A DNA stretch of 64,000 nt from Macrostomum lignano. Taxonomy: Eukaryota. The notes beneath the pieces were generated by a model. That model had not been told where the DNA came from. It saw only the letters and a program-made list of their open reading frames with translations, and made no database searches. The translations under genes were made by a program, and so were the position numbers. How positions within the stretch are numbered: position 1 is the first letter of the stretch; the number at the start of each line of letters is the position of its first letter. The stretch covers positions 1 to 64,000 of the forward strand of contig NIVC01000833.1 in NCBI GenBank assembly GCA_002269645.1, in the 5' to 3' direction. Of the stretch, positions 26,852 to 49,198 are shown one piece after another.

Positions 26852-27572
26852 CTTGCTTACTACTGATTGTTCTACCTTCTGCTGATTTTCCTTACTTAGA
26901 TGCTTAGCTTTCTTCCGGCTTTTCTTATTTGTAACTTCTGTTACGAGTATCTCAGCGCTCTCCTGGCTTCCCTTATCTATTGGTTCTTTCACTGTCACAG
27001 AATTTGGCACTGGCGCTATATTATCCCTATGCACTAATAACTTATTACCTACTAATTCGCCTTCTTCTTTCTGAATCTTAAAAACAACTTCTGAGATTTG
27101 CTTTAGCACTCTAAAAGCGGCTCTCTTTTTCCTATGGAACTTATTAGATTCATAAATGTTAAGCTGTGGATTATTAAATAACACTAAGCTTCCTACTTCG
27201 ATAATTTTTTGCTTTTTCTGACTTTCGGCGGCGGTTCGTCGTTTGTTCTGCACCTTTCTCAAATTTTTCCTTTACTAATTTCCTAGCACTTTTTAATCTC
27301 TCTGCTGCATGCTCGGAAACATAAGTTGGATAATTAGAATATTGCTTTGGCTCTCTGATCTCACTGTCTATGGGCAGAACCGTCTCTCTGCCAAATAATA
27401 AGTGCGGCGAATAACCTGTAGTCTGATTAACACTGGTTCTAACTGCGACTAGGGCGGCTGGAATTAACAGGTCCCAATTGCTGTGATCCTTTTCAATTAG
27501 ACACGTGACTATCGATTTCACTTGTTTATTCAATCTTTTTACTAAACCATTGCTTTGAGGGTGTGAAGAGTT

Positions 27573-28979
27573 TGATCGGGTGGTGATCAGTCACCCGAAA
27601 ACTGCCACTTCCAGACGTTAAGCCTGGGAACAAAATCCAGTGATCACTTTCCGGTGCGGGCTCCTCTTCTTTGTCGGGCGGGTTCTCCGAGCTCGTTTCT
27701 TAAAGGATTCTTCCTCCGGAGTAGTCTTCTTGAACTCTACAATCGGCCGAATTTTTTTTTTATTAGAGGCAGGGGGTTGTGTGCACCCTGGCGCACTTTA
27801 AGCGACATAGGCACACAACCGGCGAGAAGCATTACTGCCCATTCCGCCGACTCCCCTGAGCAGGCATACAAGCGCGCGGATACGTACGCAGGCACACACT
27901 CACACAGGAGTGTACAGCGGCCCTAACTTTATATTATCGTTAGGCATGTACACTTCACTGCGCCTTGGGGGGTTGGCTCTCAAGGCCGTTAATTGCACGA
28001 GCAGAGCCAAGCCGAGATTCCAATTCAGCCCCAAATTAATGTGACTGCACTTGGAATCGAGCCTGGGTCGCTGGCACACCAGAGCAGCTGCGCTACCGCT
28101 GGGCTACGGCCCCCCTTAACAATCGGCCGAATGTGAGAGCGTAACAATTTACTCCGTCGACGTCGAAGTATCCTCGAGTGCCGAAATCAATATGTTCCCC
28201 GAGTGCGGAAATTCAGAATCAACGATGCGCCCTAATAACAAAGTCAACTCTATAACAATGACGAGGTCCTCTAGAAAAGGCGTCTTCTTCTAGAAATAAC
28301 GGAATCGGAGTCGTGTGCTCCTATCGGTTACTCTAGGGTATCAAAATCAATCAAATCAATAATCCTCTAAGGGTATTGGAATCGGTCCACAGATCCTATC
28401 CAATCCCTTAGGAAAAGGGAGGCCTCAAATTCAATAGACTCAGTAAAATTAACTGAGCAGTAACGGCCGGCAATAACAATCGCTCTCAATAATCAAAATA
28501 ACGAAGACTTGAACAAAGCTTACCAATTGGTGTTTCTCTTCCTCAGAGATGTAGCCTCGTTTGGCTGCTCTTACAAAGCCCAAGATCTTTGGAGGCTGCT
28601 CCGAGTCTGAGATTTCAGCTCGGGTTTTGCGTTTATATTTATACACAATTTGTCGGCCTTGAGTCGACCTTGAGCTCAAAACCGGTTTTTTGATGAGTTC
28701 ACGAAAGGAATTTTATTATTTGACAGGTGGGTTTTTTTGATAGAAGTGGGTGAGACTTGGGTCACATTCAGGTTAACATTGACCATATTTGGAAGTTCTA
28801 GAAATAGATGTTGAGAACCGGTTTTTCGGACAATAGCATAGCCACTCGCTGTTTGCGTGATGCTATTGGCATTACTAAAAACAGAGTATGACGCATAGCT
28901 ATTTTTAAATTTGTGTTCATAATTTTATCTTACTACTTCTAGTAGGCTACCATGTTTGGAGATCTCTACATGTAATATT
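27573..28979. other. Unidentified insertion of about 1.4 kb splitting the integrase motif HTFTT|HPQSNG
   Basis: Integrase codons resume on both sides; GAGTT is duplicated at 27568-27572 and 28980-28984. Confidence 0.6.
27753..28118 (-). mobile_element. tRNA-derived SINE with poly(A) tail and 14-bp TSD
   Basis: TSD ACAATCGGCCGAAT at 27739-27752 and 28119-28132; T-run at 27752-27761; head GGGGCCGTAGCCCAGCGG...GGCTCGATTCC. Confidence 0.88.
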
Positions 28980-29734
28980 GAGTTGTGAAAGTGTGCTTCA
29001 CGTTGTACAATTCACAGAATGCACTAAACTGCTTGCTAGTGAATGCTTTGCCGTTATCTGTATGGATTTAATGACATTGGCCATATTCACTAAACACTCT
29101 TTCTTGCAATAGCTTAACAATTGTGTCGGCTTTTTGATTGAGCATCGGAAATGCAAATGGATACCGGGTATTGCTGTCTACTGTTGTCAGCACATACTGA
29201 TGACCCCTTTTGCTAATCTATGTGTAATTGGTGAAACAGCTCACTAATTGGAAATTACTGAATCGGAGCTTGCACTTTATGACCTCTTTTACTCTCTAGG
29301 CATGGGATGCACTCTACCTCTGCCACATGCTTCTCTACTGCAGCTACTAGGCCTGGTCTCCAAAATCTCCATCGGACACGCTGAACTGCTTTATCTCTAC
29401 CTAGCGGGCTATCATGCAGATCGCTAAACACTAGCTTATCTAAAGACTTAGGCAAAACAATTTTCCAGGTTCCTTCTTCTTCTATGTCAACAGATTCCTT
29501 TCTAATTTCATCTTCTCATATTTTCGGCTTAACTGCTTCATTTCAACTGACTCATTTTTCTGAACTGGTAGGACTGACAGATTTTCTTGCTTCCACTCTA
29601 TTAGTGTGCAGATTGCTGTATCTTCCCTTTGAGCTTTGTGACTCGTTCCTAGATTCTGGGTCAACTGGATGCGGAGTCTGCATCTCTCTTTCTCCTTCCT
29701 CTACTCTCTCGCCTACTGCAGCATTCACGCTGTC

Positions 29735-30215
29735 TCTCGGCTTCACGCCTTTTTCAATTTCACAGGCTTTCACGCCCTTTTTCACTTTCACAGGCTTTCA
29801 CGCCTTTTTCAATTTCACAGGCTTTCACGCATTTTTAACTTTCACAGGCTTTCACGCCCTTTTCACTTTCACAGGCTTTCACGCCCTTTTCACTTTCACA
29901 GGCTTTCACGCCTTTTTCACTTTGACAGGCTTTCACGCCTTTTTCACTTTCACAGGCTTTCACGCCTTTTTCACTTTCACAGGCTTTCACGCTTTTTCAC
30001 TTCCACAGGCTTTCACGCCTTTTTCAATTTCACAGGCTTTCACGCCTTTTCACCTTCACAGGCTTTCACGCCTTTTTCACTTTCACAGGCTTTCACGCCT
30101 TTTTCAATTTCACAGGCTTTCACGCATTTTTAACTTTCACAGGCTTTCACGCCCTTTTCACTTTCACAGGCTTTCACGCCTTGCTCTGTTTCACTTTCAC
30201 AGGCTTTCACGCCAT
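29735..30215. repeat. 27-bp minisatellite (TTTCACAGGCTTTCACGCCTTTTTCAC)n in the RNase H-integrase linker of the degenerate Gypsy
   Basis: About 17 visible units. Confidence 0.95.
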
Positions 30216-32024
30216 TCCTAATCTCGGTTGCTTCAGCTACTTCTGCCGGTCTTCTGGACAAACTGTCCGCGTTTGAGTGTTTTGCACCGCTTCTATGTTC
30301 GATATCGAATTGGAATTCGTTCAGGCGCTACCCAACATCCTAGAATCCCTTGGGCCTCTGTTTGCCTTGACAACCATAAAATCGCCTAATGATCAGTGCG
30401 CTAAAAATCGCTTTCCTATCAGATAAAATCTGAAATGCCTACTAATGTCTACTAACGCTAGTAACTCTTTTCTAGTTATCTGGATACCGCTTTTCTGATT
30501 CCTTCATAGCATGACTGAAATATGCTATAGGCCTCTCGATGCCATCTGACTGGATTTGGCCTAGGCAGGCCCCTATGCGTCCATCACTAGCATCAGTGTC
30601 TAAGACCATTCTAACATTTTCATCGTCTACAAATTCTGGATAGGCTAATACTTCTGTTGACATCATTCTACTATTAAGCTCCTCAAATGCTTCATCATGA
30701 GCTCTAGTCCACTTTGCCTTAGTTTCAGTCCGGCATTATAATTAGTCTTTGAAATACCTCTTTGAGGTGTTCTAAATGATCTTCAAATTGTTTAGAATAG
30801 GTCACGATGTCATCTATGTATGCTGAATTCCTGCCAATACCAAATTCATTAGTCTTTGAAAGGTACCTGAGGCATTAGATAAGCCCCGAGCCATGACTTG
30901 GTACTCAAATTGACCTCTCGTTAATGTTGAAAATGCAGTCATAAACTTGTGTTCCTCTTTCATCGGAACTTGCCAATAACCAGAATTTAGGTCAAGGTTA
31001 CTAAAGTATTGACTGCCTGTCAGATGCGAAAATGTCTCTTGAATGTTTGACAGCGGATACGGAAAGTAATTCACTCGTGAATTCAGCACTCTAAAAAGTC
31101 ACTATTCGAATAGTACCATCTTTCTTGGCTACTATCACTAAAGGTGTTGAATAAGTCGAATAGCATGGTCAGTATGCGTAATTTCACTTGGTGAGTAAAT
31201 CCACGCAGAGGAAAATAAACATTACATTCGGTGGGAATAGTGGGAGGCCTCGCCTACCACACTTATGCGGTAGGCCGGTCTACCACTGGGGCTTCTTCAA
31301 CAGTTGGCGACACGCGAAACGCCTCCATCCGTTGGGATTGTGTTGACGTCATGAGCCGCTTCCCCGGATGGCTGTGCGTTTTCCCCTCGTTGATCCCACC
31401 TTTGGTCCATTAGTTGCCCCGTCCTTTGGTTCCGCCTTGTTTTACTGTCTTCCCGGTTTTGTCCCTCTTTTCCCACCAGTGTTCCCCTAGTGTTTCACCA
31501 GTTGAATTTATGTAATTTTTTGTATAAAAATCATTGCGTATAAAGTTTTGCTTAGACTGGAGCCTCCCCGAGTTACCTTGAGTTAAGTGTGAATTTGCAG
31601 TTAATAACCGCCGTTTCACTCGGTCTACTGTCTCGTCTCATTCGTCTAATTTGATAGTTTGCGATATTCATTTGTTTATTACTCAGAACTATTAACAAGT
31701 AAGCTAACTTGTCACTTGCTTAATTTATCTTACGTAGCATCTTTATTAATAATTAGTTGAACCGTAATAATAATAACGAATAAGATAATAAGCTTCTAAC
31801 ATTAATATTTATTCAGTTGGACTTAATCGAAGCCTCTAGTTTATATTGAGTTCTTTGCCCGCGGGGCGTAAAATAACCAGTCTGTTTCAACTCAAAGAAA
31901 GCTCTGAGACCCTCAACGTTCCGTAAAACGACATTTACGGTGGTGGCAGCGCTACTCTTACTATTGTTAGTAACGAAACGAGCATCTTCGACGAATTACG
32001 AAGTTTACGGTGTCTTAGGACCCA

Positions 32025-34718: not shown

Positions 34719-35345
34719 GATAATTTCCCGCAGGAATTTTTCCTGCCAAGCTTTCCCCGCACAAGTTTTTCCCGCAGCGAGTTTTTCCCGTGACAAAAAT
34801 TTGCTACAGGAGCTTTGCCCGCATGAGATTCTCCCGCAGCAAGAGTTTCCCGCAGGAAATTTCCTCGTCAAGATTTTCCTGCCGAGCTTTTACCGCTGAG
34901 ATTTTCCTGCACGAATTTTCCCCGCACAGACTTTTCTAGCAGGAAGATTTTCCCGCAAGAAATTTCTTGTGATTGCCTGTTTACCTTAAAAAAGAAATTA
35001 TAAAAAGGAAAGCTATTAGTAAAGACGCAATTTTCTTTGATAAATTCGACACAGGCAGCCAGGCAGACAGACAGACAGACAGACAGGTAGGAAGGTAAAC
35101 AGGCAATCACGAGAAATTTCTTGCAGGAAAATTTTTCTGCTGGAAAAAGTCTGTGCAAGGAAAATTCGTGCAGGAAAATCTCAGCAGTAAAAGCTCGGCA
35201 GGAAAATCTCGACGGGGAAATTTCCTGCGGTAAAAACTCGCTGCGGGAGAATCTCGTGCGGGGAAAGCTCTTGCGGCAAATTTTCGTCGCGGGAAAAACT
35301 CATGCGGGGAAAGCTTGGCGGGAAAAATTCCTGCAGGAAATTCTC
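34719..35345. repeat. Foldback element: inverted arms of about 250-270 bp (34719-34988 / about 35094-35345) built of short subrepeats, around a spacer with (GACA)n
   Basis: The outer ends GATAATTTCCCGCAGGAATTTTTCCTGCCAAGC and the inner ends GATTGCCTGTTTACCTT both match their reverse complements. Confidence 0.85.
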
Positions 35346-35490
35346 GTGCTCCCCATTTTAATAATATTATTAATCAAATTAGATTGTTTGGTAGCTCTTC
35401 ATCCTATTGCATCCCTATACCCTCATTTCTTAATAGACAAATAGTTTTAGAAAGAGAAAACTGCAAAAAAATGGTTAGTAATAGAGATAG

Positions 35491-36250
35491 TGAGGCAGGC
35501 CCAATATTTTTATACGTATACCATTTCGAATTTACGCCAAATTTCTTGGTTACGGAATTATTTTGTTATAGCGAAAAATAATTATTTTGTTTAAATTGAT
35601 ATTTTGTTTAACCACGTCCCGCGCACCCGTCCTCCCCCTCAGTAAACCTATAAATACAAGCGTTTTCGGGCTTTAAAAACTTCGCCCGCCGTTTCCTCGA
35701 TTCGGTCAAGAAAAGCAAAACGTGTTGTCTTAGTCACTGGAAAGCAAGACAGGAGAAAAAGCTGTAAGAGGCCAGAAAAGCCGTAAGAGGCCAAGAAAGC
35801 TGTGAGAAGCCAGAAAAGCCGTAAGAGGCCAAGAAAAACTGTAAGAAGCCAGAAAAAGCCGTAAGAGGCCAGGAAAGCTGTGAGAAGCCAGAAATAGACG
35901 GTTGAGAGTCGGGCAACTCCTTCCCAGGGAGCCCGCAACTAAATATAGGGAATTAATAGTAGTAATAATAATAGTAGTGAGATTCATAATTACATGTAGA
36001 CCAGTGTTTGCCGCTCGACACTGCTACCAGGGCGCCTTGCATAGATTCAAGGAGTCCTTAGATTAGAATTCTAGACTTGATATTTTCTAAGAAGCAGCAA
36101 TTGACTAAGCAATTTTATGGAGTAATAACTATCTTAATTTACAACAACTTGGTAACAGCAGTGGGATTTTAGCAGACAGAAATATCCCCTGCGACAACTT
36201 GGTGACATCGGTAGGATAGTCTACAATTTAGTTAAACACCCCCTGGTACA
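35491..36250 (+). repeat. 5' LTR (760 bp)
   Basis: Matches 44199-44959 apart from one 1-bp indel seen by eye (GTTGAGAG vs GTTGACGAG). Confidence 0.95.
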
Positions 36251-36253
36251 ACT

Positions 36254-36272
36254 TGGTGGCAGCGGTGGGATT
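36254..36272 (+). promoter_or_regulatory. Primer binding site, tRNA-Leu type
   Basis: TGGTGGCAGCGGTGGGATT is the complement of the tRNA-Leu 3' end AATCCCACCGCTGCCA-CCA, 3 nt after the LTR. Confidence 0.88.
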
Positions 36273-36301
36273 GGAATCCGACTAAGTCGACCGCTAAAGC
36301 G

Positions 36302-36438
36302 AATAACGTGAGAGTACAGCAAATAACGTGAGAGTACAGCAAATAACGTGAGAGTACAGCAAATAACGTGAGAGTACAGCAAATAACGTGAGAGTACAGC
36401 AAATAACGTGAGAGTACAGCAAATAACGTGAGAGTACA
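36302..36438. repeat. 20-bp tandem repeat (AATAACGTGAGAGTACAGCA), about 7 units, directly upstream of the gag ATG
   Basis: Visible tandem units ending at the start codon. Confidence 0.93.
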
Positions 36439-37338
36439 ATGGCAGCACTTAATGACGCTATAGGTTTATTAGCAGAGGAGCTTAGGAACAGGCTAGAACT
36501 AGGGCCTATGAGGCATGTAAAGATCCAAAAGTACACTCCCAGCCAGGATGTACGAATTTGGTTGACTGCATTCGATCAAAGGTGTGATCAGGAAGGAATA
36601 GATCAGGAGCACAGGAAAACTGAACTTCTAGCTAACCTAGATCTATCGACTGCGTTTGCAGCAGTGCAGCGATTAAATTTACCCGATGATTTGACGTATG
36701 AGGAATTTAAGGAGAGATTGGTGGAAAGATTTGGCCGGATTGGTAGCTCATCTGAGTGCAGAGAAGAGTTTAGAGGTAGGATGCAGGGTAGAAACGAGGC
36801 AACCGACGTGTTCGCCGATGCTTTGATCGAACTAGCAGCTAGGGCGTTCCCAAATATGAACGCAGAACAGCGTGAAGAGGAAGTAATCGAGCAATTTATC
36901 AAGGGAGTAAGAATTTCCTCCGATACCCGGGAGAAACTCATTTTTGCTCAGCCCACTAGCCTGCAGGAGGCCAGACGCATGCTTAGGAGAATAGAAGCAG
37001 CCTGGCATATGTCGCATAAGAACGGTGTCAGAGTCGTGAGAGACGAAGATGATGAGAAGAGCAAGTTAGAAAAGCTAATTAAGCAGCAGAAATCTGAGCT
37101 CGAAGAGCAGAAGAAGCTAATTCAGGAACTGCAAGCTGAAAAGCAGCAGCCGCCAGTTACTCAGACTAGGCCGCAATACTATCAGCCAAGAGTTCAGGCG
37201 TTCCAGCCACAGCTTCGCCCGCTGATGCAGCAGCAGATAAGGAGGCAGATCCCGTGGAAGCCAACACAGAATGTAGTGCGACCTGGCTTTAACAACCAGA
37301 GTCGATTCCCTGCCCGCAACCCCAATCAGGGAAACTAG
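36439..37338 (+). CDS. gag: Gag (capsid-like) of the Gypsy element
   Basis: 299-aa ORF after the PBS with a retrotransposon-gag pattern (WL..F....; F..R.Q...E....F...L..LA..AFP; QFI.G), a coiled coil and a Q/R/P-rich end. Confidence 0.88.
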   Translation: MAALNDAIGLLAEELRNRLELGPMRHVKIQKYTPSQDVRIWLTAFDQRCDQEGIDQEHRKTELLANLDLSTAFAAVQRLNLPDDLTYEEFKERLVERFGRIGSSSECREEFRGRMQGRNEATDVFADALIELAARAFPNMNAEQREEEVIEQFIKGVRISSDTREKLIFAQPTSLQEARRMLRRIEAAWHMSHKNGVRVVRDEDDEKSKLEKLIKQQKSELEEQKKLIQELQAEKQQPPVTQTRPQYYQPRVQAFQPQLRPLMQQQIRRQIPWKPTQNVVRPGFNNQSRFPARNPNQGN

Positions 37339-40300
37339 GATTCGAGGGTCGATATTCGAGGCCACGTCCCTCTAGGAAACCCCAAAGCGAATCTCAGGCC
37401 TCTCATTTCTCCCGCAAACCCGTTTTCAACCCACTCCCTGGAGGATGGCGACAAGTCCCATTTTCCAGGAATTCAATGCGTAATGCACCAATGCGTAATG
37501 CACCAACGCGTAATGCACCCATGTATAGAGCACCAATGCGTAATGCACCTGTAAACAGCGCGTCTCCCATCGCGCTATCTCCTAATATGTTTGAGTTATT
37601 GGCGTCAGAGCCCAGTGAGTCAGATGCAAAAGCATCAGCATCCGAGTTGACAAAGTCCCCAGTGACTAAGCCAGCAAATGCAAAGCAGAAGGCGAGAAAA
37701 TCTCGCAAAGCGAAATATCGAGAAGCTAAGAAAGCAGCTGAGAAAGCAAAAGTTGAATTGATAAGCGAGAAAAGTAGCGAAGCAATTGTCTTTGGAGACG
37801 TTGAAGGTCAAGAAATTGACTTCTTGCTTGACACCGGAGCCGGAAACTGCTTCCTGAGCAAGTCAGTATGGTCCAAGGTGATCAAGACAGAGCAAATCAG
37901 AGAAACCAATAAGAGAGTTACCACATTTGATGGTTCCTCAGTGCAGCTAGAAGGAGAAGCTAGTGTGTCTGTAACCTTTGGAGATATGATATTCAAATTA
38001 ATATTAGCTTTTTGCTGTGCAGCTATGAATGTGATAACATTCTTGGCATGGACTTCTTCCTTTCTCACTGCAAAAGCATTGATTTAGATAATGGCATGCT
38101 TGTACTAAAGAGAGGCCTCTGTGTGCCTATGCAGTACACCCGCCAAGCAGTTAGAATTTGCCGAGTTTATACTCGAGAAAAGGCAGTAGTACCTGCTAAT
38201 AGTGCATTGAGAGTTCCCATTAGGCTAGCGAAAGACCATGAGCTCAATCATGGCACTCCTATGACAGTAGAAGTGATCGGAGAAGGCGTGAGAGCCAAGG
38301 AATTGACAGTAGAGATGGTTCCGACATTGGTCACCATGAGAGACGGCAGTGCCATCGTGGAGATCGTGAATCGACACTCTGTCGACGTGAGACTGCCGAA
38401 GTCGACATTGATTGGTCTGGCCAAGCCCATGAGAGCCAAGGACCTCGTCTACTGGTCAGCATCGCCTTCCGCCGCCGAATCAGCTTCGCCGACAATTGCC
38501 GAAGATGCCGCACAACCCGCCGGACGTGTCTATCAAGCTCAGGCAACTGAAGATGCTTGGGTGAGCGAAATTAGTATTGGTGCCAATTTATCTGAAAGTC
38601 AGCGAAAAGCAGTAATTGATCTCGTGAGAGAGAATAGAGAAGCATTTTCCCAGCATGATTTAGACATGGGATTGACTCATCTAGTCACTCATGAAATTTC
38701 CCTGAAGGACGAGACCCCTGTTAGAATCCCTACCCGCCGCATCCCCCCTCATCTCCAAAAGCAAGTCGACGCCCAGCTAGACGACATGCTAGCCAAGAAT
38801 CTCATTCGCCCCTGCTATTCTACCTATTCTACCCCATTAGTCATTGTGCCAAAGAAGGATGGCACCATCCGAATAGTGAGTGATTTCCGAGTGCTCAACT
38901 CTAGAGTTAACTATTTTCCCTATCCCCTCCCCAATATTCAAGAAACTTTTTCTAATCTTACTGGCAGTAGGTACTTTAGTAGTTTAGATCTTAACTCAGG
39001 TTATTGGCAAGTGCCTATAAAGGAAGAGCATAAGTTCATGACCGCGTTCTCTACTCTGACGCGAGGACAGTTTGAGTACCAGGTTATGGCGCAAGGGTTA
39101 TCCAACGCGCCCGGTACATTTCAAAGACTGATGAACTTAGTGCTAGCCGGAATCCAGCATAAGTTTGCAATGTCGTATATTGACGATATAGTTACTTACT
39201 CGAAGCAATTTGAGGAGCATTTATCCCATCTAAGAGAGGTGTTTCAGAGATTGATCACCGCAGGTTTAAAGTTGAGAGCGAAAAAGTGCAACTTATTTCA
39301 CTCTGAACTCAAGTATCTAGGCCATGTGATAGGCAGAGATGGCATTCGCACAGACGAAGCCAAGATTGAAGCCATTAGGACCTGGCCAAAGCCAAAGGAA
39401 GTAAAGGAATTAAGAAGCTTTTTAGGATTGTGCAACTACTACAGCAGATTTGTCAAAAATTATGCTGAAGTAGCGCATCCTCTTTTCCAGTTGACTCGTA
39501 AGGGAGTTCAAAACTTCCAAGCAAAATGGACAGCAAAGCATGATGAAGCGTTTGAGCTATTGAAAACCCGTATGATGAGTACTGACGTGTTAGCATACCC
39601 TGAGTTCATAGACAATGAGAAGGTGAAGATGGTTCTCGATGTAGACGCCAGTGATGGACGCATAGGTGCCTGTTTAGGACAAATCCAATCAGACGGTGTC
39701 GAGAGACCAATCGCCTACTTTAGTCGCGCTATGAAGGAGTCAGAAAAACGCTATCCCATAACTCGCAAGGAGTTGCTAGCTCTAGTAGATGCCATGAGGC
39801 ATTTCCGCTTCTATCTAATAGGAAAGAAATTTCTAGCTAGGACCGACCATAAGGCTATACTTTGGTTATTAAGGCAGACAGAAGCCCAGGGCATTTTAGG
39901 CAGATGGATTGAGCGCCTCAACGAGTTTCAATTTGAAATCGAGCATAGGAGTGGCGCGAAACATTCAAATGCCGATAGCTTGTCCCGAAGGCCAGCCGAG
40001 GCTGCCCAGCCAGATTGTAAAGCCAATGAGAAGGCGGAAGCCGAGAAGAAGAGTCGAGAGATAAGCAAAATCACCAGCAAAGGCGTAAGAGCCGAAGTGA
40101 ACCAAGAGATAAGAACTGATAAAGAGGAGTTTATCCCCAGCGAACGCGTGTGTGCAAAGCAGAACCAGAATGGGAAGGCTAAGGACAGCATGAGCGATCT
40201 GACCCAGCCCCCCACTGAGCTGAGAGAAGGAGAGACCAACCCCCCTGAGCCACAGAGGAATAAAATAGTCTCTGGTGAGAAGAGTGTAAGGATTGACAGT

Positions 40301-42136
40301 GTGAAAACACAGAGCTCCTGCATTATGCAATCGAGCAGAGTCACCCCACAATCTGAGCACAGTGAGGAGTATGGCACGCTGAAGGTTGGAGCATTATTAG
40401 TTGACTTCCTACCCAACCCCCTGCGGAGAGAGCAGATCGTTAATGCCCAGCGAGAAGACCCCAATATTCGCACTTTGCTAAATTGCAAACTCGAAGAAAA
40501 GGAACCCCCCGCCGAGCAGAAGAGCATTAGCTCAGAATTAAGGCAGTTGAGCAAATTTTACGAGAAAATGAAAATCGAAAGCGATATGCTTGTTATTGAA
40601 GAAGAAGGAGTAAGCAAAATTGTGTTGCCAGTGTCGCTGGACAAATTAGTGCTGGCTGATCTACACGATAGCCCACTAGCAGGACACTTGGGTCGTGACA
40701 AGACAGTGCAAAGAGTTAGGGAGAGATTTTGGAGACCTGGCTTAGTGACAGCCATTGAGAAGTACATATCTGAGTGTATTCCGTGTTTGGAAAGCAAAAG
40801 AGGATGCCCTGTTCAGGCTCCAGTGCAGTCATTCCCAGTCAACGAGGCATTCCACCGCCTGCATATTGATATCATAGGCCCCATTTCGAAAGAAAGCAAG
40901 AGAGGCCATAGATATGTGCTGACTGTAGTTGATAGCACTACCCGCTACCCATTCGCGTTCCCGATCCGTAATCAGAAGTCTGATACCGTGATCAAGATCT
41001 TACAGGAGCGAATTTTCAGCGAATATGGTCAATGCCATTGGATACATACTGACAATGGGAAAACCTTCACAAGCAGACAGTTTAAAGCGTTTTGCGATTT
41101 GTACAATGTTAAACACACTTGTACCACCCCGTACCATGCCCAAAGTAATGGCTTGGTAGAGAGGTTTAACAAGCAAGTGAAATCCATCATTACCTGTTTA
41201 ATTAAGAAGGACCATAGCAATTGGGATTTAATGATCCCAGCAGCGCTTGTTGCAGTGCGCACTAGTGTGAATCAAACCACAGGCTATTCACCCCATTTCC
41301 TGTTATTCGGAAGGGAGCCAGTTTTGCCACTAGACAGTCAAATTCGCCAGCCAAAACAGTACTCAGGCTATCCAGCCTATGTCGCAGATCATGCCGAAAG
41401 GCTAGAAATTGCCAGAAAAATCGTGAGAGATAAGCTCGAGAAAGTTGCTGATAATAGAAAGAATATTGCTGAAACAGCCAAGCAGCCTAAGGAAGTACCA
41501 GTAGGGAGTTTAGCGCTAATAAATAACCCGCAGTTAGACAATGAGGAGTCTAACAAATTTCACAGAAAGAAGAGAGCCGCCTATAGAGTGATTGAACAGA
41601 TCTCAGACGTAGTGTTTAGAGTGCAGAGAGAGGAAGATGGTGAGCTTGTAGGGAATAAATTATTAGTGCATAGGGACAATTTAACACTAGTTCCTAATTC
41701 GACCGCGGAATTGCCAATTAAGGGAAGCCAGCAGGAGAGCCACCGGAAGAAAAATCAGTCAAGGAGGGAACCTAAAGCTAAGGGAAGCCACCCGCCGAGG
41801 AAGCATAAGGAGGTAGTGATTAGTGAAGAGTCTGAGTCTGACACTGAATCTGAAGATGAACGAGTGCAATGGCAATGCCAACTGAGAGAATCCGAAACGG
41901 AACCAGCAACTGAGAGCGAAGATGAGAGCCAAGAGTCAGAGAGTGCAGTAGAAGAAGAAGGAATAATGAGCAATGCAGAAGACGCCAGAGAGAACAATGA
42001 GATTGAGCATGAGCACGAGGAAGCTAATTCAGAGAGGAGATACAATACACGCAGGCAGGTCAGGCCCCCCAAGTGCTATTGTTGCTTGAAGCGGCTGGCC
42101 ACTGTGCTGTCTTTGTTGAACAATCTCAGTTTCTGA
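37329..42136 (+). CDS. pol: Pro-Pol (protease, RT, RNase H, integrase); likely entered by -1 frameshift at GGGAAAC; apparent 1-T deletion at 38009-38013
   Basis: LLDTGA (protease); LDLNSGYWQ and YIDD (RT); DASD, E and TDH (RNase H); HLGRDKT..CIPC, HIDIIGP, TDNG and SNGLVERFN (integrase). The -1 frame is open from 37329 into ORF 37476. Confidence 0.93.
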
Positions 42137-42174: not shown

Positions 42175-42391
42175 CCAATGAGAGGAGGCGTAGAAGTGAA
42201 GGGATTTCGAGGCCGTGGATAGGGGAGAGAGGCGAAGAGACCGACAGCCAATAAGGAAGAATCATCAGCCAATGAGAGAAGACCTGCCATTTAAACAAAT
42301 AATTGTTTGTTTGAATAAGCTTGAAACATGATACCCCCCAAAGTGGAATGTTTGTAAACCTATATAAGCGAGATCCCTGACGCAATCAGTT
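42175..42391 (+). promoter_or_regulatory. Putative internal Pol II promoter for ORF3
   Basis: CCAAT at 42175, 42248 and 42269; TATATAA at 42361-42367; TCAGTT Inr at 42386-42391, about 27 nt after TATA. Confidence 0.6.
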
Positions 42392-42461: not shown

Positions 42462-43826
42462 ATGGATAAAGAAAACGAAGAGTTAAATATTTTAGCAGAC
42501 GGTAGTGAATTTGACGATCTATTAAAAGAGCTTGAAGGGCCTTGGCCCATGCAGCAAGATGAGCAAACTGAGCAACCACAGCCAGAGCGTTCAGCGCAGC
42601 AAAACGAGCAAGAACAGCTAGCTGAGGCCCCGTCGCAGCCGCCTGCTACGCAGCAGCCTGCCCCGACGCTGGCACCGCCGTCAGAGCCATTACGGGAGCG
42701 TCAGCCAGCTGACCTGCCCGGGCCCTCGCAGCCACCGGAGCCCTCCACCAAGCCAAAGCGACCTGCTGCGGAAACGGATCAGGGTACACAAGCAAAGAGG
42801 CCGGCCCCGTCAGGGCTGCCAGTGTCCCAGGATCCGGCAGCACGACAGGAGCTCGTTAGAGTAAAGTCGGTGCAGTCCGTGGTGGTAAAACCGACGGTGA
42901 TGCAGAGGCACCCGGCTGGCGCGCGGCCCACACTGATGTTAGCTGCCCCGCCTCAGCAGCAGCGGCCGGCTCAGCGGTCGCAGCCTCGGCGTGTGGCGTC
43001 GCGAGCAGAAGTCCGACAGCAGCTGCCAGTGCACCGCAGGCTGGCTCCGCGGCCGCCGCCGCAGCAGCGCCAGCAGTCGCCGCCGCAGCGCCGCCACCAG
43101 TCTCCGCCGCGGCACCGTCAGCAGCCACCGCCGTCTCAGCACCGTCAGCAGCCACCGCCGTCTCAGCATCATCAGCAGCCACCGCCGCCTCAGCATCATC
43201 AGCAGCCACCGCCGTCTCAGCATCATCAGCAGCCACCGCCGTCTCAGCATCATCAGCAGCCACCGCCGTCTCAGCATCATCAGCAGCCACCGCCGTCTCA
43301 GCATCATCAGCAGCCACCGCCGTCTCAGCATCATCAGCAGCCACCGCCGTCGCATCAGCAGCCGCCACCGCAGACTGCAGTGCCACCACAGGCGTCAACC
43401 TGCCGTGCAGCTGCAAGTTATTTGTTTGTCCCCGGCAACCAAGACATCCAAAGGCTTGCTGCGATGGGCGCCGACTTCAGCGCCATCATGGACGGTTTGT
43501 CGCCAGAACAGCAGGCAAGAATGAAGCGACTGATTGCTGCCCTGAAGGAATATCTAATGCGAATCGGCCACTTGCGGTTGGACCGGCCGCTGCCACAGCG
43601 GGCCCAGGTCCGGCCAGCCTGCATTGTGCTTCGCCAAGAATTCACGCCTGAGCAAGCTGTCGCGGCTTGGCGCCGCGCCGTGAATTACGTACTTCATGAC
43701 CTGAATGCGGCTGGCCAGCCGTACTTTCGCACGCTGCTTATCATCGAGATTAAGTGGCTCGCCGAGCAAGTCGGATGGCCTCTACGCGACCTTTTGCCGG
43801 ACGAATTTAATCTGAATGATAATTAG
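42462..43826 (+). CDS. ORF3 of the Gypsy element: 454-aa Pro/Gln-rich protein with (QHHQQPPPS)n and a predicted helical C-terminal domain; function unknown
   Basis: Intact ATG-initiated sense ORF between pol and the 3' LTR, GC-rich, with no signal peptide or TM segment. Confidence 0.8.
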   Translation: MDKENEELNILADGSEFDDLLKELEGPWPMQQDEQTEQPQPERSAQQNEQEQLAEAPSQPPATQQPAPTLAPPSEPLRERQPADLPGPSQPPEPSTKPKRPAAETDQGTQAKRPAPSGLPVSQDPAARQELVRVKSVQSVVVKPTVMQRHPAGARPTLMLAAPPQQQRPAQRSQPRRVASRAEVRQQLPVHRRLAPRPPPQQRQQSPPQRRHQSPPRHRQQPPPSQHRQQPPPSQHHQQPPPPQHHQQPPPSQHHQQPPPSQHHQQPPPSQHHQQPPPSQHHQQPPPSQHHQQPPPSHQQPPPQTAVPPQASTCRAAASYLFVPGNQDIQRLAAMGADFSAIMDGLSPEQQARMKRLIAALKEYLMRIGHLRLDRPLPQRAQVRPACIVLRQEFTPEQAVAAWRRAVNYVLHDLNAAGQPYFRTLLIIEIKWLAEQVGWPLRDLLPDEFNLNDN

Positions 43827-44183
43827 GTGACTATAATTGAACTGTCATGTACTGTTATTTTTTTTCGCATTGCATGCATACCTATTTAGCCTTCACTAAT
43901 TTTGCATGGATACCTATTTAGCCAAAATTTTTGTGTGCTCAACTTTGTGCAACTTTATATTTAGCCAAACATCTTTTTGTACGCTCAACTTCGTGCCATT
44001 TTAATAATAGCCAACCTTGCTCAATTCTTCCACTAACTATATTACTAATATTACCATGTTGTGTGCTGTTTTAATGTTTTAGTGTCAACCAATTTTATTT
44101 AGTGCCTACGTTTTGTGATTAAAAGCCCCCATTTGCACTTTAACTACACATTTATTCACTCACTAGTTTATTCATAAATATGT

Positions 44184-44193
44184 AGAAGGGAAG
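44184..44193 (+). promoter_or_regulatory. Polypurine tract
   Basis: AGAAGGGAAG, 5 nt upstream of the 3' LTR. Confidence 0.6.
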
Positions 44194-44198
44194 CCAGT

Positions 44199-44959
44199 TG
44201 AGGCAGGCCCAATATTTTTATACGTATACCATTTCGAATTTACGCCAAATTTCTTGGTTACGGAATTATTTTGTTATAGCGAAAAATAATTATTTTGTTT
44301 AAATTGATATTTTGTTTAACCACGTCCCGCGCACCCGTCCTCCCCCTCAGTAAACCTATAAATACAAGCGTTTTCGGGCTTTAAAAACTTCGCCCGCCGT
44401 TTCCTCGATTCGGTCAAGAAAAGCAAAACGTGTTGTCTTAGTCACTGGAAAGCAAGACAGGAGAAAAAGCTGTAAGAGGCCAGAAAAGCCGTAAGAGGCC
44501 AAGAAAGCTGTGAGAAGCCAGAAAAGCCGTAAGAGGCCAAGAAAAACTGTAAGAAGCCAGAAAAAGCCGTAAGAGGCCAGGAAAGCTGTGAGAAGCCAGA
44601 AATAGACGGTTGACGAGTCGGGCAACTCCTTCCCAGGGAGCCCGCAACTAAATATAGGGAATTAATAGTAGTAATAATAATAGTAGTGAGATTCATAATT
44701 ACATGTAGACCAGTGTTTGCCGCTCGACACTGCTACCAGGGCGCCTTGCATAGATTCAAGGAGTCCTTAGATTAGAATTCTAGACTTGATATTTTCTAAG
44801 AAGCAGCAATTGACTAAGCAATTTTATGGAGTAATAACTATCTTAATTTACAACAACTTGGTAACAGCAGTGGGATTTTAGCAGACAGAAATATCCCCTG
44901 CGACAACTTGGTGACATCGGTAGGATAGTCTACAATTTAGTTAAACACCCCCTGGTACA
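44199..44959 (+). repeat. 3' LTR (761 bp)
   Basis: Direct repeat of 35491-36250, followed by TSD ATAG. Confidence 0.95.
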
Positions 44960-45943
44960 ATAGCTAATAGCTAATAGAGATAGCCAAGCCTTATCTTTTA
45001 TAATCCAAGCCCAAGGCTTAATGCAAATATAAAAGTAGTCTTTTAGATAGTATTTTCTTAAAGCTTGAATATGCAAGCTTAAATATTATTTTTTGCTAGC
45101 CTAGTCTAGTCTTTAGTAGACTTATTAGCATTAGTATAAAAAAGTGTTTTAGCAATAGTGTCTGGATATACATATATACACTAGAAATATTTAAATCATT
45201 ATTTTGAGCAGTTTTAATTTTCTTCTGAATAATTCTAATGTATTTAATAGAAAATATCTTAGACTTTGTAATTGTTGTTTTGTTCAATTTTTAAAGCAAA
45301 GGATAAAAGTAATGAGTAATAGTTTGAATTATTCATTTTTTTAATTGCTCTATTAATTGAAATTTAATCTAAATATTTTGTATGATAATGTGTCCATTTA
45401 GAGAATGGCTTTATACTTATTATCTATATCTTAGGCTAAGGACTATTGGTGCTTTTTATATCATTGTTGTCTTATTGGACCTACCTAGTTCTTGTTTTTA
45501 ACTTTTGACAAATATGCTGTGATAGGCCTAGGAATTATATGTTCCCTTGTTCCTTTAATAAGATGGTTTTTGTAACATAGTTTCATATTGAAATCATTTT
45601 AAAGTACAATTTTGTGATTTGTATGTAAAGTGCATTAGTTTTCATTTTATTGTATATATTTTAATTTATAAAAAAATCCATTAAATAAAAGACAACTTGT
45701 AAAATAACTGCATATTGTGTGCAATACCTAGCTGGGTGAGCTGGGTGACCACATTAGATATGTTGCAATTGCAAACTAGTCAATAGAATAAAAAGGCATT
45801 GAATCTGTTTATTAAGCTAAATGTTTTGTTTTATATACATAGCAGTAAAATTGTTATATTATCGATTTTTAGAGTCAATGTTGCAGTATTACTAGCAGTA
45901 GTCTATCTCAATAATAAATGCATGCCAAGCTTCATCAGTTTGA

Positions 45944-46420
<477 letters not shown>

Positions 46421-46765
46421 ATAATTCTGTTTGCTGCCAATAAGAGACGCCTTGATTGACAGACTTGTGTCAGAGTGCTTGAGATGCGGGCTGTTGTAGA
46501 GCTAAATACATCTAGTTAGGCGTTGGCTTATTGATTTCGAATGCGCTGAAATCACTTGTGTGGATTTGAAGAGAAAAAACGATAGTAGTTTAACAGTCTT
46601 CAATAACCGTTTTTTTTCTTTTTCTTATCTTTCTCTAGTGCTGAGGCAAGACTGCGGACCAGAATAGGGGAGAGAAGAAAGAGAATTGAGATAAGAGAAA
46701 AATGAGAGGAGATTAGATAGTAGGTAGCTGAGATGAGACATAAACGTTAAATGGAGAAACAATAG

Positions 46766-48826
46766 AGGAGAGGTGAGGAAGGACAAGAGAGTAGAGATGA
46801 GGACAAGAGAGTAGAGGTGAGGAGAGACAAGAGAGTAGAGGTGAGGAGAGACAAGAGAGTAGAGGTGAGGAGGGACAAGAGAGTAGAGGTGAGGAGAGAC
46901 AAGAGAGTAGAGGTGAGGAGGGACAAGAGAGTAGAGGTGAGGAGAGACAAGAGAGTAGAGGTGAGGAGAGACAAGAGAGTAGAGGTGAGGAGAGACAAGA
47001 GAGTAGAGGTGAGGAGAGACAAGAGAGTAGAGGTGAGGAGAGACAAGAGAGTAGAGGTGAGGAGAGACAAGAGAGTAGAGATGATGAGAGACAAGAGAGT
47101 AGAGGTGAGGAGAGACAAGAGAGTAGAGGTGAGGAGAGACAAGAGAGTAGAGGTGAGGAGAGACAAGAGAGTAGAGGTGAGGAGAGACAAGAGAGTAGAG
47201 GTGAGGAGAGACAAGAGAGTAGAGGTGAGGAGAGACAAAAGAGTAGAGGTGAGGAGAGACAAGAGAGTAGAGGTGAGGAGAGACAAGAGAGTAGAGGTGA
47301 GGAGAGACAAGAGAGTAGAGGTGAGGAGAGACAAGAGAGTAGAGGTGAGGAGGGACAAGAGAGTAGAGGTGAGGAGAGACAAGAGAGTAGAGGTGAGGAG
47401 GGACAAGAGAGTAGAGGTGAGGAGAGACAAGAGAGTAGAGGTGAGGAGAGACAAGAGAGTAGAGGTGAGGAGAGACAAGAGAGTAGAGGTGAGGAGAGAC
47501 AAGAGAGTAGAGGTGAGGAGAGACAAGAGAGTAGAGGTGAGGAGAGACAAGAGAGTAGAGGTGAGGAGAGACAAGAGAGTAGAGATGATGAGAGACAAGA
47601 GAGTAGAGGTGAGGAGAGACAAGAGAGTAGAGGTGAGGAGAGACAAGAGAGTAGAGGTGAGGAGAGACAAGAGAGTAGAGGTGAGGAGAGACAAGAGAGT
47701 AGAGGTGAGGAGAGACAAGAGAGTAGAGGTGAGGAGAGACAAAAGAGTAGAGGTGAGGAGAGACAAGAGAGTAGAGGTGAGGAGAGACAAGAGAGTAGAG
47801 GTGAGGAGAGACAAGAGAGTAGAGGTGAGGAGAGACAAGAGAGTAGAGGTGAGGAGAGACAAAAGAGTAGAGGTGAGGAGAGACAAGAGAGTAAAGGTGA
47901 GGAGAGACAAGAGAGTAGAGGTGAGGAGAGACAAGAGAGTAGAGGTGAGGAGAGACAAGAGAGTAGAGGTGAGGAGAGACAAGAGAGTAGAGGTGAGGAG
48001 AGACAAGAGAGTAGAGATGAGGAGAAACAAAAGAGTAGAGGTGAGGAGAGACAAGAGAGTAGAGGTGAGGAGAGACAAGAGAGTAGAGGTGAGGAGAGAA
48101 AAAAGAGTAGAGATGAGGAGAGAAAAAAGAGTAGAGGTGAGGAGAGACAAGAGAGTAGAGGTGAGGAGAGACAAGAGAGTAGAGATGAGGAGAGACAAGA
48201 GAGTAGAGGTGAGGAGAGACAAGAGAGTAGAGGTGAGGAGAGACAAGAGAGTAGAGATGAGGAGAGAAAAAAGAGTAGAGGTGAGGAGAGACAAGAGAGT
48301 AGAGATGAGGAGAGACAAGAGAGTAGAGGTGAGGAGAGACAAGAGAGTAGAGGTGAGGAGAGACTAGAGAGTAGAGGTGAGGAGAGACAAGAGAGTAGAG
48401 GTGAGGAGAGACAAGAGAGTAGAGATGAGGAGAGACAAAAGAGTAGAGGTGAGGAGAGACAAGAGAGTAGAGATGAGGAGAGACAAGAGAGTAGAGGTGA
48501 GGAGGGACAAGAGAGTAGAGGTGAGGAGAGACAAGAGAGTAGAGGTGAGGAGAGAAAAAAGAGTAGAGATGAGGAGAGAAAAAAGAGTAGAGGTGAGGAG
48601 AGACAAGAGAGTAGAGATGAGGAGAGACAAGAGAGTAGAGGTGAGGAGAGACAAGAGAGTAGAGGTGAGGAGAGACAAGAGAGTAGAGGTGAGGAGAGAC
48701 AAGAGAGTAGAGGTGAGGAGAGACAAGAGAGTAGAGATGAGGAGAGACAAGAGAGTAGAGGTGAGGAGAGACAAGAGAGTAGAGGTGAGGAGAGACAAGA
48801 GAGTAGAGGTGAGGAGAGACAAGAGA
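46766..48826. repeat. 24-bp satellite (GTGAGGAGAGACAAGAGAGTAGAG)n, about 86 units
   Basis: Visible homogeneous tandem array. Confidence 0.98.
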
Positions 48827-49198
48827 GGAGTGATTCGTGAAGTTTCAAAGGACCTGAGGGCGGAATTAGATATACTTTGCTGGTCGAAGTTTTCAGGCCT
48901 ACATGTATACATTGTAAAGTGTAATTTTTATAAAGAAATAATTCATCTTTAGCCAGTTTCAAAATAATTAGGTAGTTTTCCTCAATGTACACCCTGTTTG
49001 AGCGTGGGAAAAATGTTAGGGCGGTCAGAAATTAGGTAGACTAAAAATAGCTCTGAAACATTACGAGTATTCTCTACTCCAAGCCCCAGTTATACCAGCT
49101 ATAGTCTTCGGGTTTGCACTTTTAGAACGACTGCATGTCTTTTGCACTTTTTAAGAGTGCTAATATACACAGCTTTACATATACGCTTGTACATGTAC

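What the first reader, a model, noticed from the sequence alone, without database searches (positions are those of the whole stretch)
42462..43826. Non-env third ORF carried by a young Gypsy element
An intact 454-aa sense ORF sits in the env position but lacks a signal peptide, TM or furin/fusion features. It has an acidic amphipathic N-terminus (EFDDLLKELEGPW, like a linear interaction or activation motif), a long disordered P/Q region with about nine 27-bp (QHHQQPPPS) repeats, and a C-terminal region of about 130 aa that looks helical (MKRLIAALKEYLMRIG...AVAAWRRAVNYVLHDL...IKWLAEQVGWPL). I do not recognise the domain. It could be an accessory factor (anti-silencing, condensate/VLP scaffold, chromatin targeting) or a captured host fragment.
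Basis: partly seen in the sequence, partly recalled or inferred. Interest (0 to 1): 0.8.

Follow-up and report, generated by a model that had tools for sequence, protein, structure and literature searches.

The report
Swappable accessory gene of flatworm retrotransposons
A group of flatworm jumping genes carries an extra, conserved protein gene unlike any known envelope or host gene, present in many very different versions swapped onto near-identical backbones, and it likely acts in the nucleus to switch on its own kind of element.

Summary
The ORF is real and selected. It is the third gene of a Gypsy LTR clade in Macrostomum lignano: acidic N-terminal helix, long disordered linker, and a ~120-aa six-helix domain (pLDDT 93) with no Pfam, PDB or viral-fold match and no membrane segment. 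The domain follows 84 of 88 integrase copies of the clade and is under purifying selection (pN ~0.10, synonymous sites saturated). At least 29 types ride on near-identical gag-pol, so ORF3 behaves as an old, exchangeable cassette. The same types sit in young pol-less LTR-gag-ORF3-LTR elements. Four sister clades carry a probable remote homolog behind a conserved splice acceptor, one in frame with integrase; the focal clade has a TATA-like internal promoter instead. One domain-only gene lies outside any element and looks host-retained. Best reading (0.4, inferred from anatomy): a nuclear, type-specific activator or anti-silencer of its own LTR; main rival a Rev/CERV-like RNA export adaptor. No binding, localisation or expression was shown. 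It is not env and not a captured host fragment. This copy's pro-pol frame is broken.

The parts
35491..36250 (+). 5' LTR (TG...CA), preceded by target duplication ATAG at 35487-35490
36254..36271 (+). Primer-binding site (tRNA-Leu type, assignment recalled, not from a call)
   Evidence: sequence
36439..37338 (+). gag, 299 aa
   Evidence: Retrotrans_gag, below cut-off
37476..38087 (+). Protease-containing frame; out of frame with the rest of pol in this copy
38048..42136 (+). RT-RNase H-integrase frame, 1362 aa
42175..42391 (+). Predicted internal promoter: CCAAT at 42175, 42248, 42269; TATA at 42361; initiator-like TCAGTT at 42386
   Evidence: sequence; TATA-like box enriched in 14 of 24 non-redundant ORF3 upstream regions vs 2.2 expected; activity not shown
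42462..43826 (+). ORF3, 454 aa accessory gene
42501..42533 (+). Acidic amphipathic helix (residues 14-24), activation-motif-like or export-signal-like
42834..42872 (+). Conserved short helix in the linker (residues 125-137, R128 nearly invariant)
43118..43371 (+). 27-bp in-frame tandem array, 9.5 copies, family-specific
43437..43811 (+). C-terminal six-helix domain, no known family or fold
44181..44198 (+). Polypurine tract
44199..44959 (+). 3' LTR, followed by target duplication ATAG at 44960-44963

Best explanation
ORF3 is a conserved non-envelope accessory gene of a flatworm Gypsy clade, likely expressed from its own subgenomic RNA, whose product is predicted to be a nuclear regulator that likely recognises its own element type through the C-terminal helical domain and would recruit activating or anti-silencing host factors through the acidic helix, so raising transcription from the cognate LTR. 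Shown: the gene, its selection, its fold class, its clade-wide presence, its many types on shared gag-pol, its presence in pol-less elements. Inferred: the internal promoter (focal clade) or splice acceptor (sister clades) is used; the protein is nuclear; it binds element nucleic acid in a type-specific way; the effect is activation. Type specificity would explain why many old versions persist while gag-pol is homogenised by recombination, and why pol-less parasites carry the same ORF3-LTR cassette as their helpers.
For: Layout of motif, disordered linker and compact domain; hydrophobic-x-x-hydrophobic-hydrophobic motif in 20 of 22 focal ORF3s vs 8.0 in shuffles; domain net charge positive in 67 of 70; no membrane segment in 28 of 28. 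SUMO-interaction-like V/I/F-I/V-D-L motif in 12 of 20 sister-clade ORF3s vs 0.3 expected, plus basic clusters (motif definitions recalled). TATA-like box 14 of 24 vs 2.2, max 7 in 500 shuffles; pyrimidine-CAG acceptor just before the conserved ATG in 14 of 14 sister sequences printed. Purifying selection and in-frame repeats 43 of 45 vs 17 of 44 in LTRs. 41 of 85 pairs with RT >=93% identical in DNA have domains <70% identical; 0 of 2259 pairs with domains <70% identical share U3 or R at >=85%. 23 of 27 pol-less two-LTR elements keep an open ORF3.
Against: No DNA- or RNA-binding fold was recognised, and no cognate site was found. ORF3-U3 association is also what linkage and homology-dependent template switching give. 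Identical ORF3 goes with clearly different U3 variants in the window's own family. Pol-less elements may keep ORF3 only because they keep re-acquiring the 3' cassette from helpers, and 4 of 44 pol-less loci (one young family) have no domain match. The SUMO-like motif is absent from the focal clade (0 of 22). An export-signal pattern fits the same N-terminal helix in 16 of 28. Sequences within groups are related, so motif counts are not independent. Expression is not shown.
Confidence: 0.4

Rival explanations
1. Rev/Rex/CERV-like export adaptor: made from a subgenomic RNA, it would bind a response element near the 3' end of full-length RNA and export it through a leucine-rich signal.
For: Splice acceptor before ORF3 in sister clades implies intron-containing genomic RNA; class-1 export-signal pattern in the first 32 aa of 16 of 28 focal ORF3s vs 3.5 in shuffles, Arg-rich and RS/SP tracts in sisters; precedent CERV in Cer1 (PMC10309623, sections read); weak fold likeness to Gle1 C-terminal domain, Z 8.0, rmsd 3.8.
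Against: The window's own ORF3 and 11 other focal ORF3s lack the class-1 pattern; any amphipathic helix beats that shuffle; only 4 of 14 sister ORF3s match vs 2.2 expected; Z 8 is within background for helical bundles.
Confidence: 0.25
2. Type-specific repressor or interference factor (an immunity group): resident ORF3 would limit elements of its own type, so rare types are favoured, as with phage immunity regions (analogy recalled).
For: At least 29 types coexist at 1-11 sampled copies each, mostly young; divergence peaks on ORF3 itself and falls off both ways; SUMO-like motif could recruit silencing machinery; a domain-only gene outside any element looks retained by the host.
Against: Acidic activation-like helix and own promoter fit an activator better; a pol-less parasite gains little from carrying a repressor; the stand-alone gene also fits a decoy of an activator.
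Confidence: 0.15
3. Integration or particle adaptor: an integrase-associated tether to chromatin, or a condensate scaffold for particle assembly.
For: In one sister clade the ORF is in frame with integrase (open frames of 2139-2215 aa); long low-complexity linker.
Against: Even the fused forms keep their own Met and acceptor; very different ORF3 types sit on 97-100% identical gag and integrase, unlike a co-evolving protein partner.
Confidence: 0.12
4. Captured host fragment or neutral passenger ORF.
For: Database entries for the family are annotated as host hypothetical proteins; one copy lies outside any element.
Against: Purifying selection across types; 84 of 88 clade integrases followed by it; 22 of 24 loci without gag or pol still show LTR or promoter remnants; no homolog outside this lineage.
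Confidence: 0.03

Closest known systems
CERV of C. elegans Cer1 (PMC10309623; abstract and two sections read)
   Same: Non-env accessory protein of an animal Gypsy-type element, from a spliced RNA, nuclear, fast-evolving, folded domains with flexible linkers, candidate NLS and NES
   Different: CERV shares exons with gag and has H, M (Cys-loop) and G-protein-like domains; ORF3 lies after pol, has one unrelated helical domain, and shows cassette-like type diversity
Foamy virus Tas/Bet (PMC13220597, search listing only)
   Same: 3' accessory gene driven by an internal promoter; Tas activates the internal promoter and LTR
   Different: No sequence or fold link found; activation by ORF3 is untested; retrotransposon without env
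VANC anti-silencing proteins of VANDAL DNA transposons (PMC5735166, abstract)
   Same: Element-encoded accessory proteins that diverge to serve different element families; tandem repeats in element non-coding regions
   Different: Plant DNA transposons; no family match; no target motif or demethylation shown here
Additional 3' ORFs of plant Gypsy elements, e.g. Retand TRP28 (PMC7264820 part 1 of 3; PMC11963269 abstract)
   Same: Conserved ORF between pol and 3' LTR, unknown function, suggested regulatory, non-autonomous carriers
   Different: Those are antisense or env-like with membrane segments; no Pfam match here
Non-env ORF3s of bdelloid LTR elements (PMC5408684, abstract) and Tor env with internal promoter (PMC4402516, abstract)
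   Same: Third ORF that is not canonical env; switch between LTR-derived and internal-promoter expression within one family
   Different: Those are captured enzymes or membrane glycoproteins; ORF3 has no enzyme or membrane signature

Membership tests
Ty3/Gypsy LTR retrotransposon | LTRs, PBS, PPT, target duplication, PR-RT-RH-IN order | tested here: met
Named Gypsy clade (Mag, CsRN1, Gmr1/Osvaldo, Mdg3) | RT placement with reference elements | not testable with these tools
   No named reference RTs were on hand; tree uses unnamed outgroups; supplement 1 of PMC12801592 gives no sequences
Env / fusogen | Signal peptide and transmembrane anchor | tested here: not met
   Max hydropathy 0.68 in the window ORF, <=1.11 in 28 of 28 focal ORF3s
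Env / fusogen | Sequence or fold match to an envelope family | tested here: inconclusive
   No match in Pfam, PDB or viral fold library
Rev/Rex/CERV-like export adaptor | Leucine-rich export signal | tested here: inconclusive
   Pattern in 16 of 28, not in the window ORF
Rev/Rex/CERV-like export adaptor | Needed for export of unspliced RNA; binds a response element | not testable with these tools
   Needs experiment
Tas/Tax-like trans-activator | Expression from an internal promoter | tested here: inconclusive
   TATA-like enrichment 14 of 24 vs 2.2; no start site could be read from contigs
Tas/Tax-like trans-activator | Activates cognate LTR | not testable with these tools
   Needs reporter assay
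VANC-like anti-silencer | Binds family-specific motifs and removes silencing | not testable with these tools
   LTR tandem repeats exist in many but not all families; no binding data
Captured host gene | Host ortholog outside elements and in other species | tested here: not met
   searches hold few flatworm repeat proteins, so range is a lower bound

The most novel reading that the evidence does not exclude
An animal LTR-retrotransposon lineage runs a specificity-group system: dozens of ORF3-LTR cassettes, each a matched regulator and target with a new fold, are kept by frequency-dependent selection and swapped between autonomous and pol-less backbones, and the host has kept a domain-only copy as a decoy against it.
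Probability: 0.22. Interest if true: 0.9.

Novelty: new variant of a known kind. Interest (0 to 1): 0.72.

Why it matters
Element-encoded regulators are well known in complex retroviruses but barely in animal LTR retrotransposons (CERV is the clear case read here). This is a new protein family with a confident, unmatched fold, many natural specificity candidates, and a transgenic host in which LTR reporters already work (PMC12801592). It makes directly testable how an animal retrotransposon switches itself on or evades silencing, why dozens of families coexist on one replication backbone, and whether hosts co-opt such domains as inhibitors.

Tried and rejected
Pfam on the ORF, on 31 domain sequences and on 16 sister domains: nothing near a cut-off. 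PDB sequence profiles: nothing. Word search of 5.8 billion proteins: none; with the profile only P0001 among 8000 scored candidates. Representative search: 6 hits, 4 family members and 2 short spurious matches. Protein atlas: no hit above 0.85, low recognition. Fold searches: no Foldseek match at E<=0.001, best VIA Z 8.0; this does not prove a new fold. Dimer prediction: no verdict, 0.31 vs mark 0.32. RNA: no RNA holder listed; four contig sets of guessed RNA cover gag, pol and ORF3 and show no ORF3 splice joint or start, no evidence either way. Selected synonymous recoding to escape small RNAs: rejected, 322 identical codons of 774 vs 285 expected. Forkhead-like motif shared by both promoters: enriched in U3 (32 vs 5.5) but not in the internal promoter (8 vs 5.6). 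Profile links focal-to-C/D and B-to-E were not above shuffles. The L059/L062 'different U3' row is a TATA misplacement. Earlier scan notes: none. Literature: 0 papers for Macrostomum+retrotransposon+ORF3 and for Mlig026206; 'ORF' does not occur in the main text of PMC12801592; its supplements 2-5 and the earlier classification paper it cites were not seen and could mention these ORFs; searches listed no description of this family.

Full report
Observation. ORF 42462-43826 is a 454-aa uninterrupted sense frame inside a Gypsy element with LTRs at 35491-36250 and 44199-44959, 761/762 identical, target duplication ATAG, PBS and PPT. The 27-bp array has 9.5 copies. There is no hydrophobic segment. 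A model from a 31-sequence alignment gives six helices, pLDDT 93.3, pTM 0.88 for the last 128 aa; the full-length model is disordered elsewhere except two short helices. This copy's protease and RT frames are out of register. The host is Macrostomum lignano by database labels: P0001 is the ORF3 of locus L087 and P0004 that of L091.

Distribution. The domain has 150 scored matches of 278 candidates in the genome, 100-32% identical; a second query added further families. Of 120 fetched 10-kb loci, chosen by me for diversity and open frames, 69 lie behind pol of this clade (52 with both LTRs in view), 27 are pol-less two-LTR elements, 24 have neither gag nor pol; 22 of those 24 still show LTR or promoter remnants. 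Reverse test: of 88 integrase matches at >=80% identity, 84 have a listed domain match within 8 kb downstream (compared by eye); the four others are a contig edge, an ORF3 interrupted by an insertion, and two decayed copies (the edge copy was not fetched). Outside this species only P0003/P0007, from unnamed run contigs, were found.

Selection. Window versus L038: pN 0.096, pS 0.73; L050 versus L056: dN 0.085, pS 0.74; pol-less L089 versus L090: dN 0.12, pS 0.69 (54 of 61 loci had a stop-free domain). Very close pairs are too similar to judge (L039/L046 gave 1.29). Tandem arrays in the linker DNA have periods divisible by three in 43 of 45 units versus 17 of 44 in LTRs, so the disordered part is read as protein too. 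ORF3 is open for >=270 aa in 40 of 52 autonomous and 23 of 27 pol-less elements.

Cassette behaviour. Across 120 pairs the median identity is 92% for RT and 39% for the domain. Pairs such as L060/L053, L080/L082 and L080/L088 are mostly 95-100% identical in DNA over gag-pol and about 45-65% over ORF3 and U3; in L050/L064 and L073/L077 the drop is confined to ORF3. RT dS is 0.04-0.24 where domain dS is saturated. Among 28 elements, 41 of 85 pairs with RT >=93% identical have domains <70% identical. Seventy elements fall into 29 types at 93%. No pair with domains <70% identical shares U3 or R at >=85% (0 of 2259), but identical ORF3 can go with different U3 variants, and linkage alone predicts much of the association. 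Long survival of many ORF3 lineages on a homogenised backbone points to frequency-dependent selection or niche partition (inference). Selected synonymous recoding was tested and not seen.

Pol-less carriers. They are about 5-7 kb: LTR, a ~195-aa gag-like ORF 35-50% like autonomous gag with a Cys/His knuckle-like end, a spacer, the integrase tail, ORF3, LTR; 24 of 27 have LTRs >=99% identical. They share ORF3 types with autonomous elements (34 such pairs), so they re-acquire the 3' cassette. Of 44 loci found by their gag, 37 have a listed domain match downstream; four (one young family) have none and three are old with another insert. ORF3 is therefore usual but not strictly required in cis.

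Sister clades. Elements with 55-62% identical integrase also have a 3' ORF with a disordered part and a ~100-aa helical end. Groups B and C start a few bases after the pol stop; D abuts or continues the integrase tail; E is in frame with integrase (open frames 2139-2215 aa; 96 matches). Profile comparisons: focal-B P 6.7e-4 over 95 columns, focal-E P 6.4e-3 over 78, E-C/D 3e-6, each above 40 of 40 block shuffles; focal-C/D and B-E were not. Homology is probable, not proven. All five groups form one RT clade against six unnamed outgroups (support 0.998), whose pol tails lack the domain. All 14 sister sequences printed have a pyrimidine-rich CAG shortly before a conserved ATG, even the fused ones, and group E repeats the pattern of near-identical RT with 24-30% identical domains. 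The focal clade instead has about 300 bases after pol with a TATA-like box in 14 of 24 (2.2 expected). Tor elements show a similar switch for env (PMC4402516, abstract).

Stand-alone copy. L091-L093 are three copies of one locus (flanks 93-99% identical) with a 118-119-aa domain-only ORF behind the element's promoter motif and TATA, with no gag, pol, LTR or PPT nearby; it is 43% identical to the nearest element domain with pS 0.77, and copies differ by 4 silent and 1 replacement, and 3 silent and 2 replacement changes. It looks host-retained and derived from the element; the numbers are small.

Mechanism. Shown: a selected, soluble, modular accessory protein with many types. Inferred: subgenomic expression, nuclear action, type-specific recognition. 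The focal N-terminal helix fits an acidic activation motif (20 of 22 vs 8.0) and often an export signal (16 of 28 vs 3.5, not in the window ORF); sister ORFs carry a SUMO-interaction-like motif (12 of 20 vs 0.3) and basic tracts; the domain is mostly net positive with invariant D, P, E, W and near-invariant R. Motif definitions are recalled. I commit to a type-specific activator or anti-silencer of the cognate LTR (0.40), against export adaptor (0.25), type-specific repressor (0.15), integration or particle adaptor (0.12) and host fragment or neutral (0.03).

Comparison and novelty. It works like a complex-retrovirus regulator or CERV (PMC10309623) or VANC (PMC5735166, abstract) but matches none by sequence or fold. 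The recent survey of this species' LTR elements does not mention ORFs in its main text (part 1 of 6 read; supplement 1 read), the envelope survey PMC13524379 does not mention Macrostomum (passages), and searches found no description. Extra 3' ORFs are a known kind; this family, its cassette diversity, its pol-less carriers and its stand-alone copy appear undescribed. Verdict: new variant of a known kind, interest 0.72.

Noticed in passing
L091:8133-8486 (oriented), L092, L093; proteins P0004, P0008: Domain-only 118-119-aa gene with the element's internal promoter motif, outside any element, mostly silent differences between copies: candidate host-retained decoy.
   Followed up: partly
window 36144-36250 and 44852-44959: The LTR 3' end holds two degenerate copies of the LTR-end/PBS junction; similar copies in 10 of 26 LTRs checked, suggesting stepwise LTR extension.
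   Followed up: partly
L075:4647-5231 and other pol-less elements: Short gag-like ORF with its own long history and a Cys/His knuckle-like end, which the autonomous gag of the focal clade lacks while sister-clade gags have a CCHC knuckle.
   Followed up: partly
window 36298-36438 and 35757-35894: Tandem arrays in the leader (20 bp x 7) and in the LTR downstream of its TATA (19 bp x 7); many families have their own LTR arrays.
   Followed up: partly
window 1754-25859: Cluster of at least four MACPF-domain genes (Pfam confirmed for one; likeness to MPEG1/perforin-2 recalled); two form a 4186-bp 100% inverted duplication around a 1494-bp spacer with retroelement-like remnants, possibly an assembly artefact.
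   Followed up: no
window 45953-46420: Intronless ubiquitin-RPS27a gene 1 kb downstream of the 3' LTR.
   Followed up: no
window 27354-31168 (minus): Decayed copy of the same Gypsy clade (RT 92%, integrase ~78%), no ORF3 domain detected.
   Followed up: partly
window 34720-35349: Small inverted-repeat element with 14-16-bp subrepeats just upstream of the 5' LTR.
   Followed up: no
window 46753-48952 and 59764-64000: Long 24-bp and 15-bp minisatellites giving spurious repetitive ORFs.
   Followed up: no
L151-L152, L174: Tandem arrays of elements sharing LTRs (three pol-less units about 4.6 kb apart; two sister-clade units).
   Followed up: no
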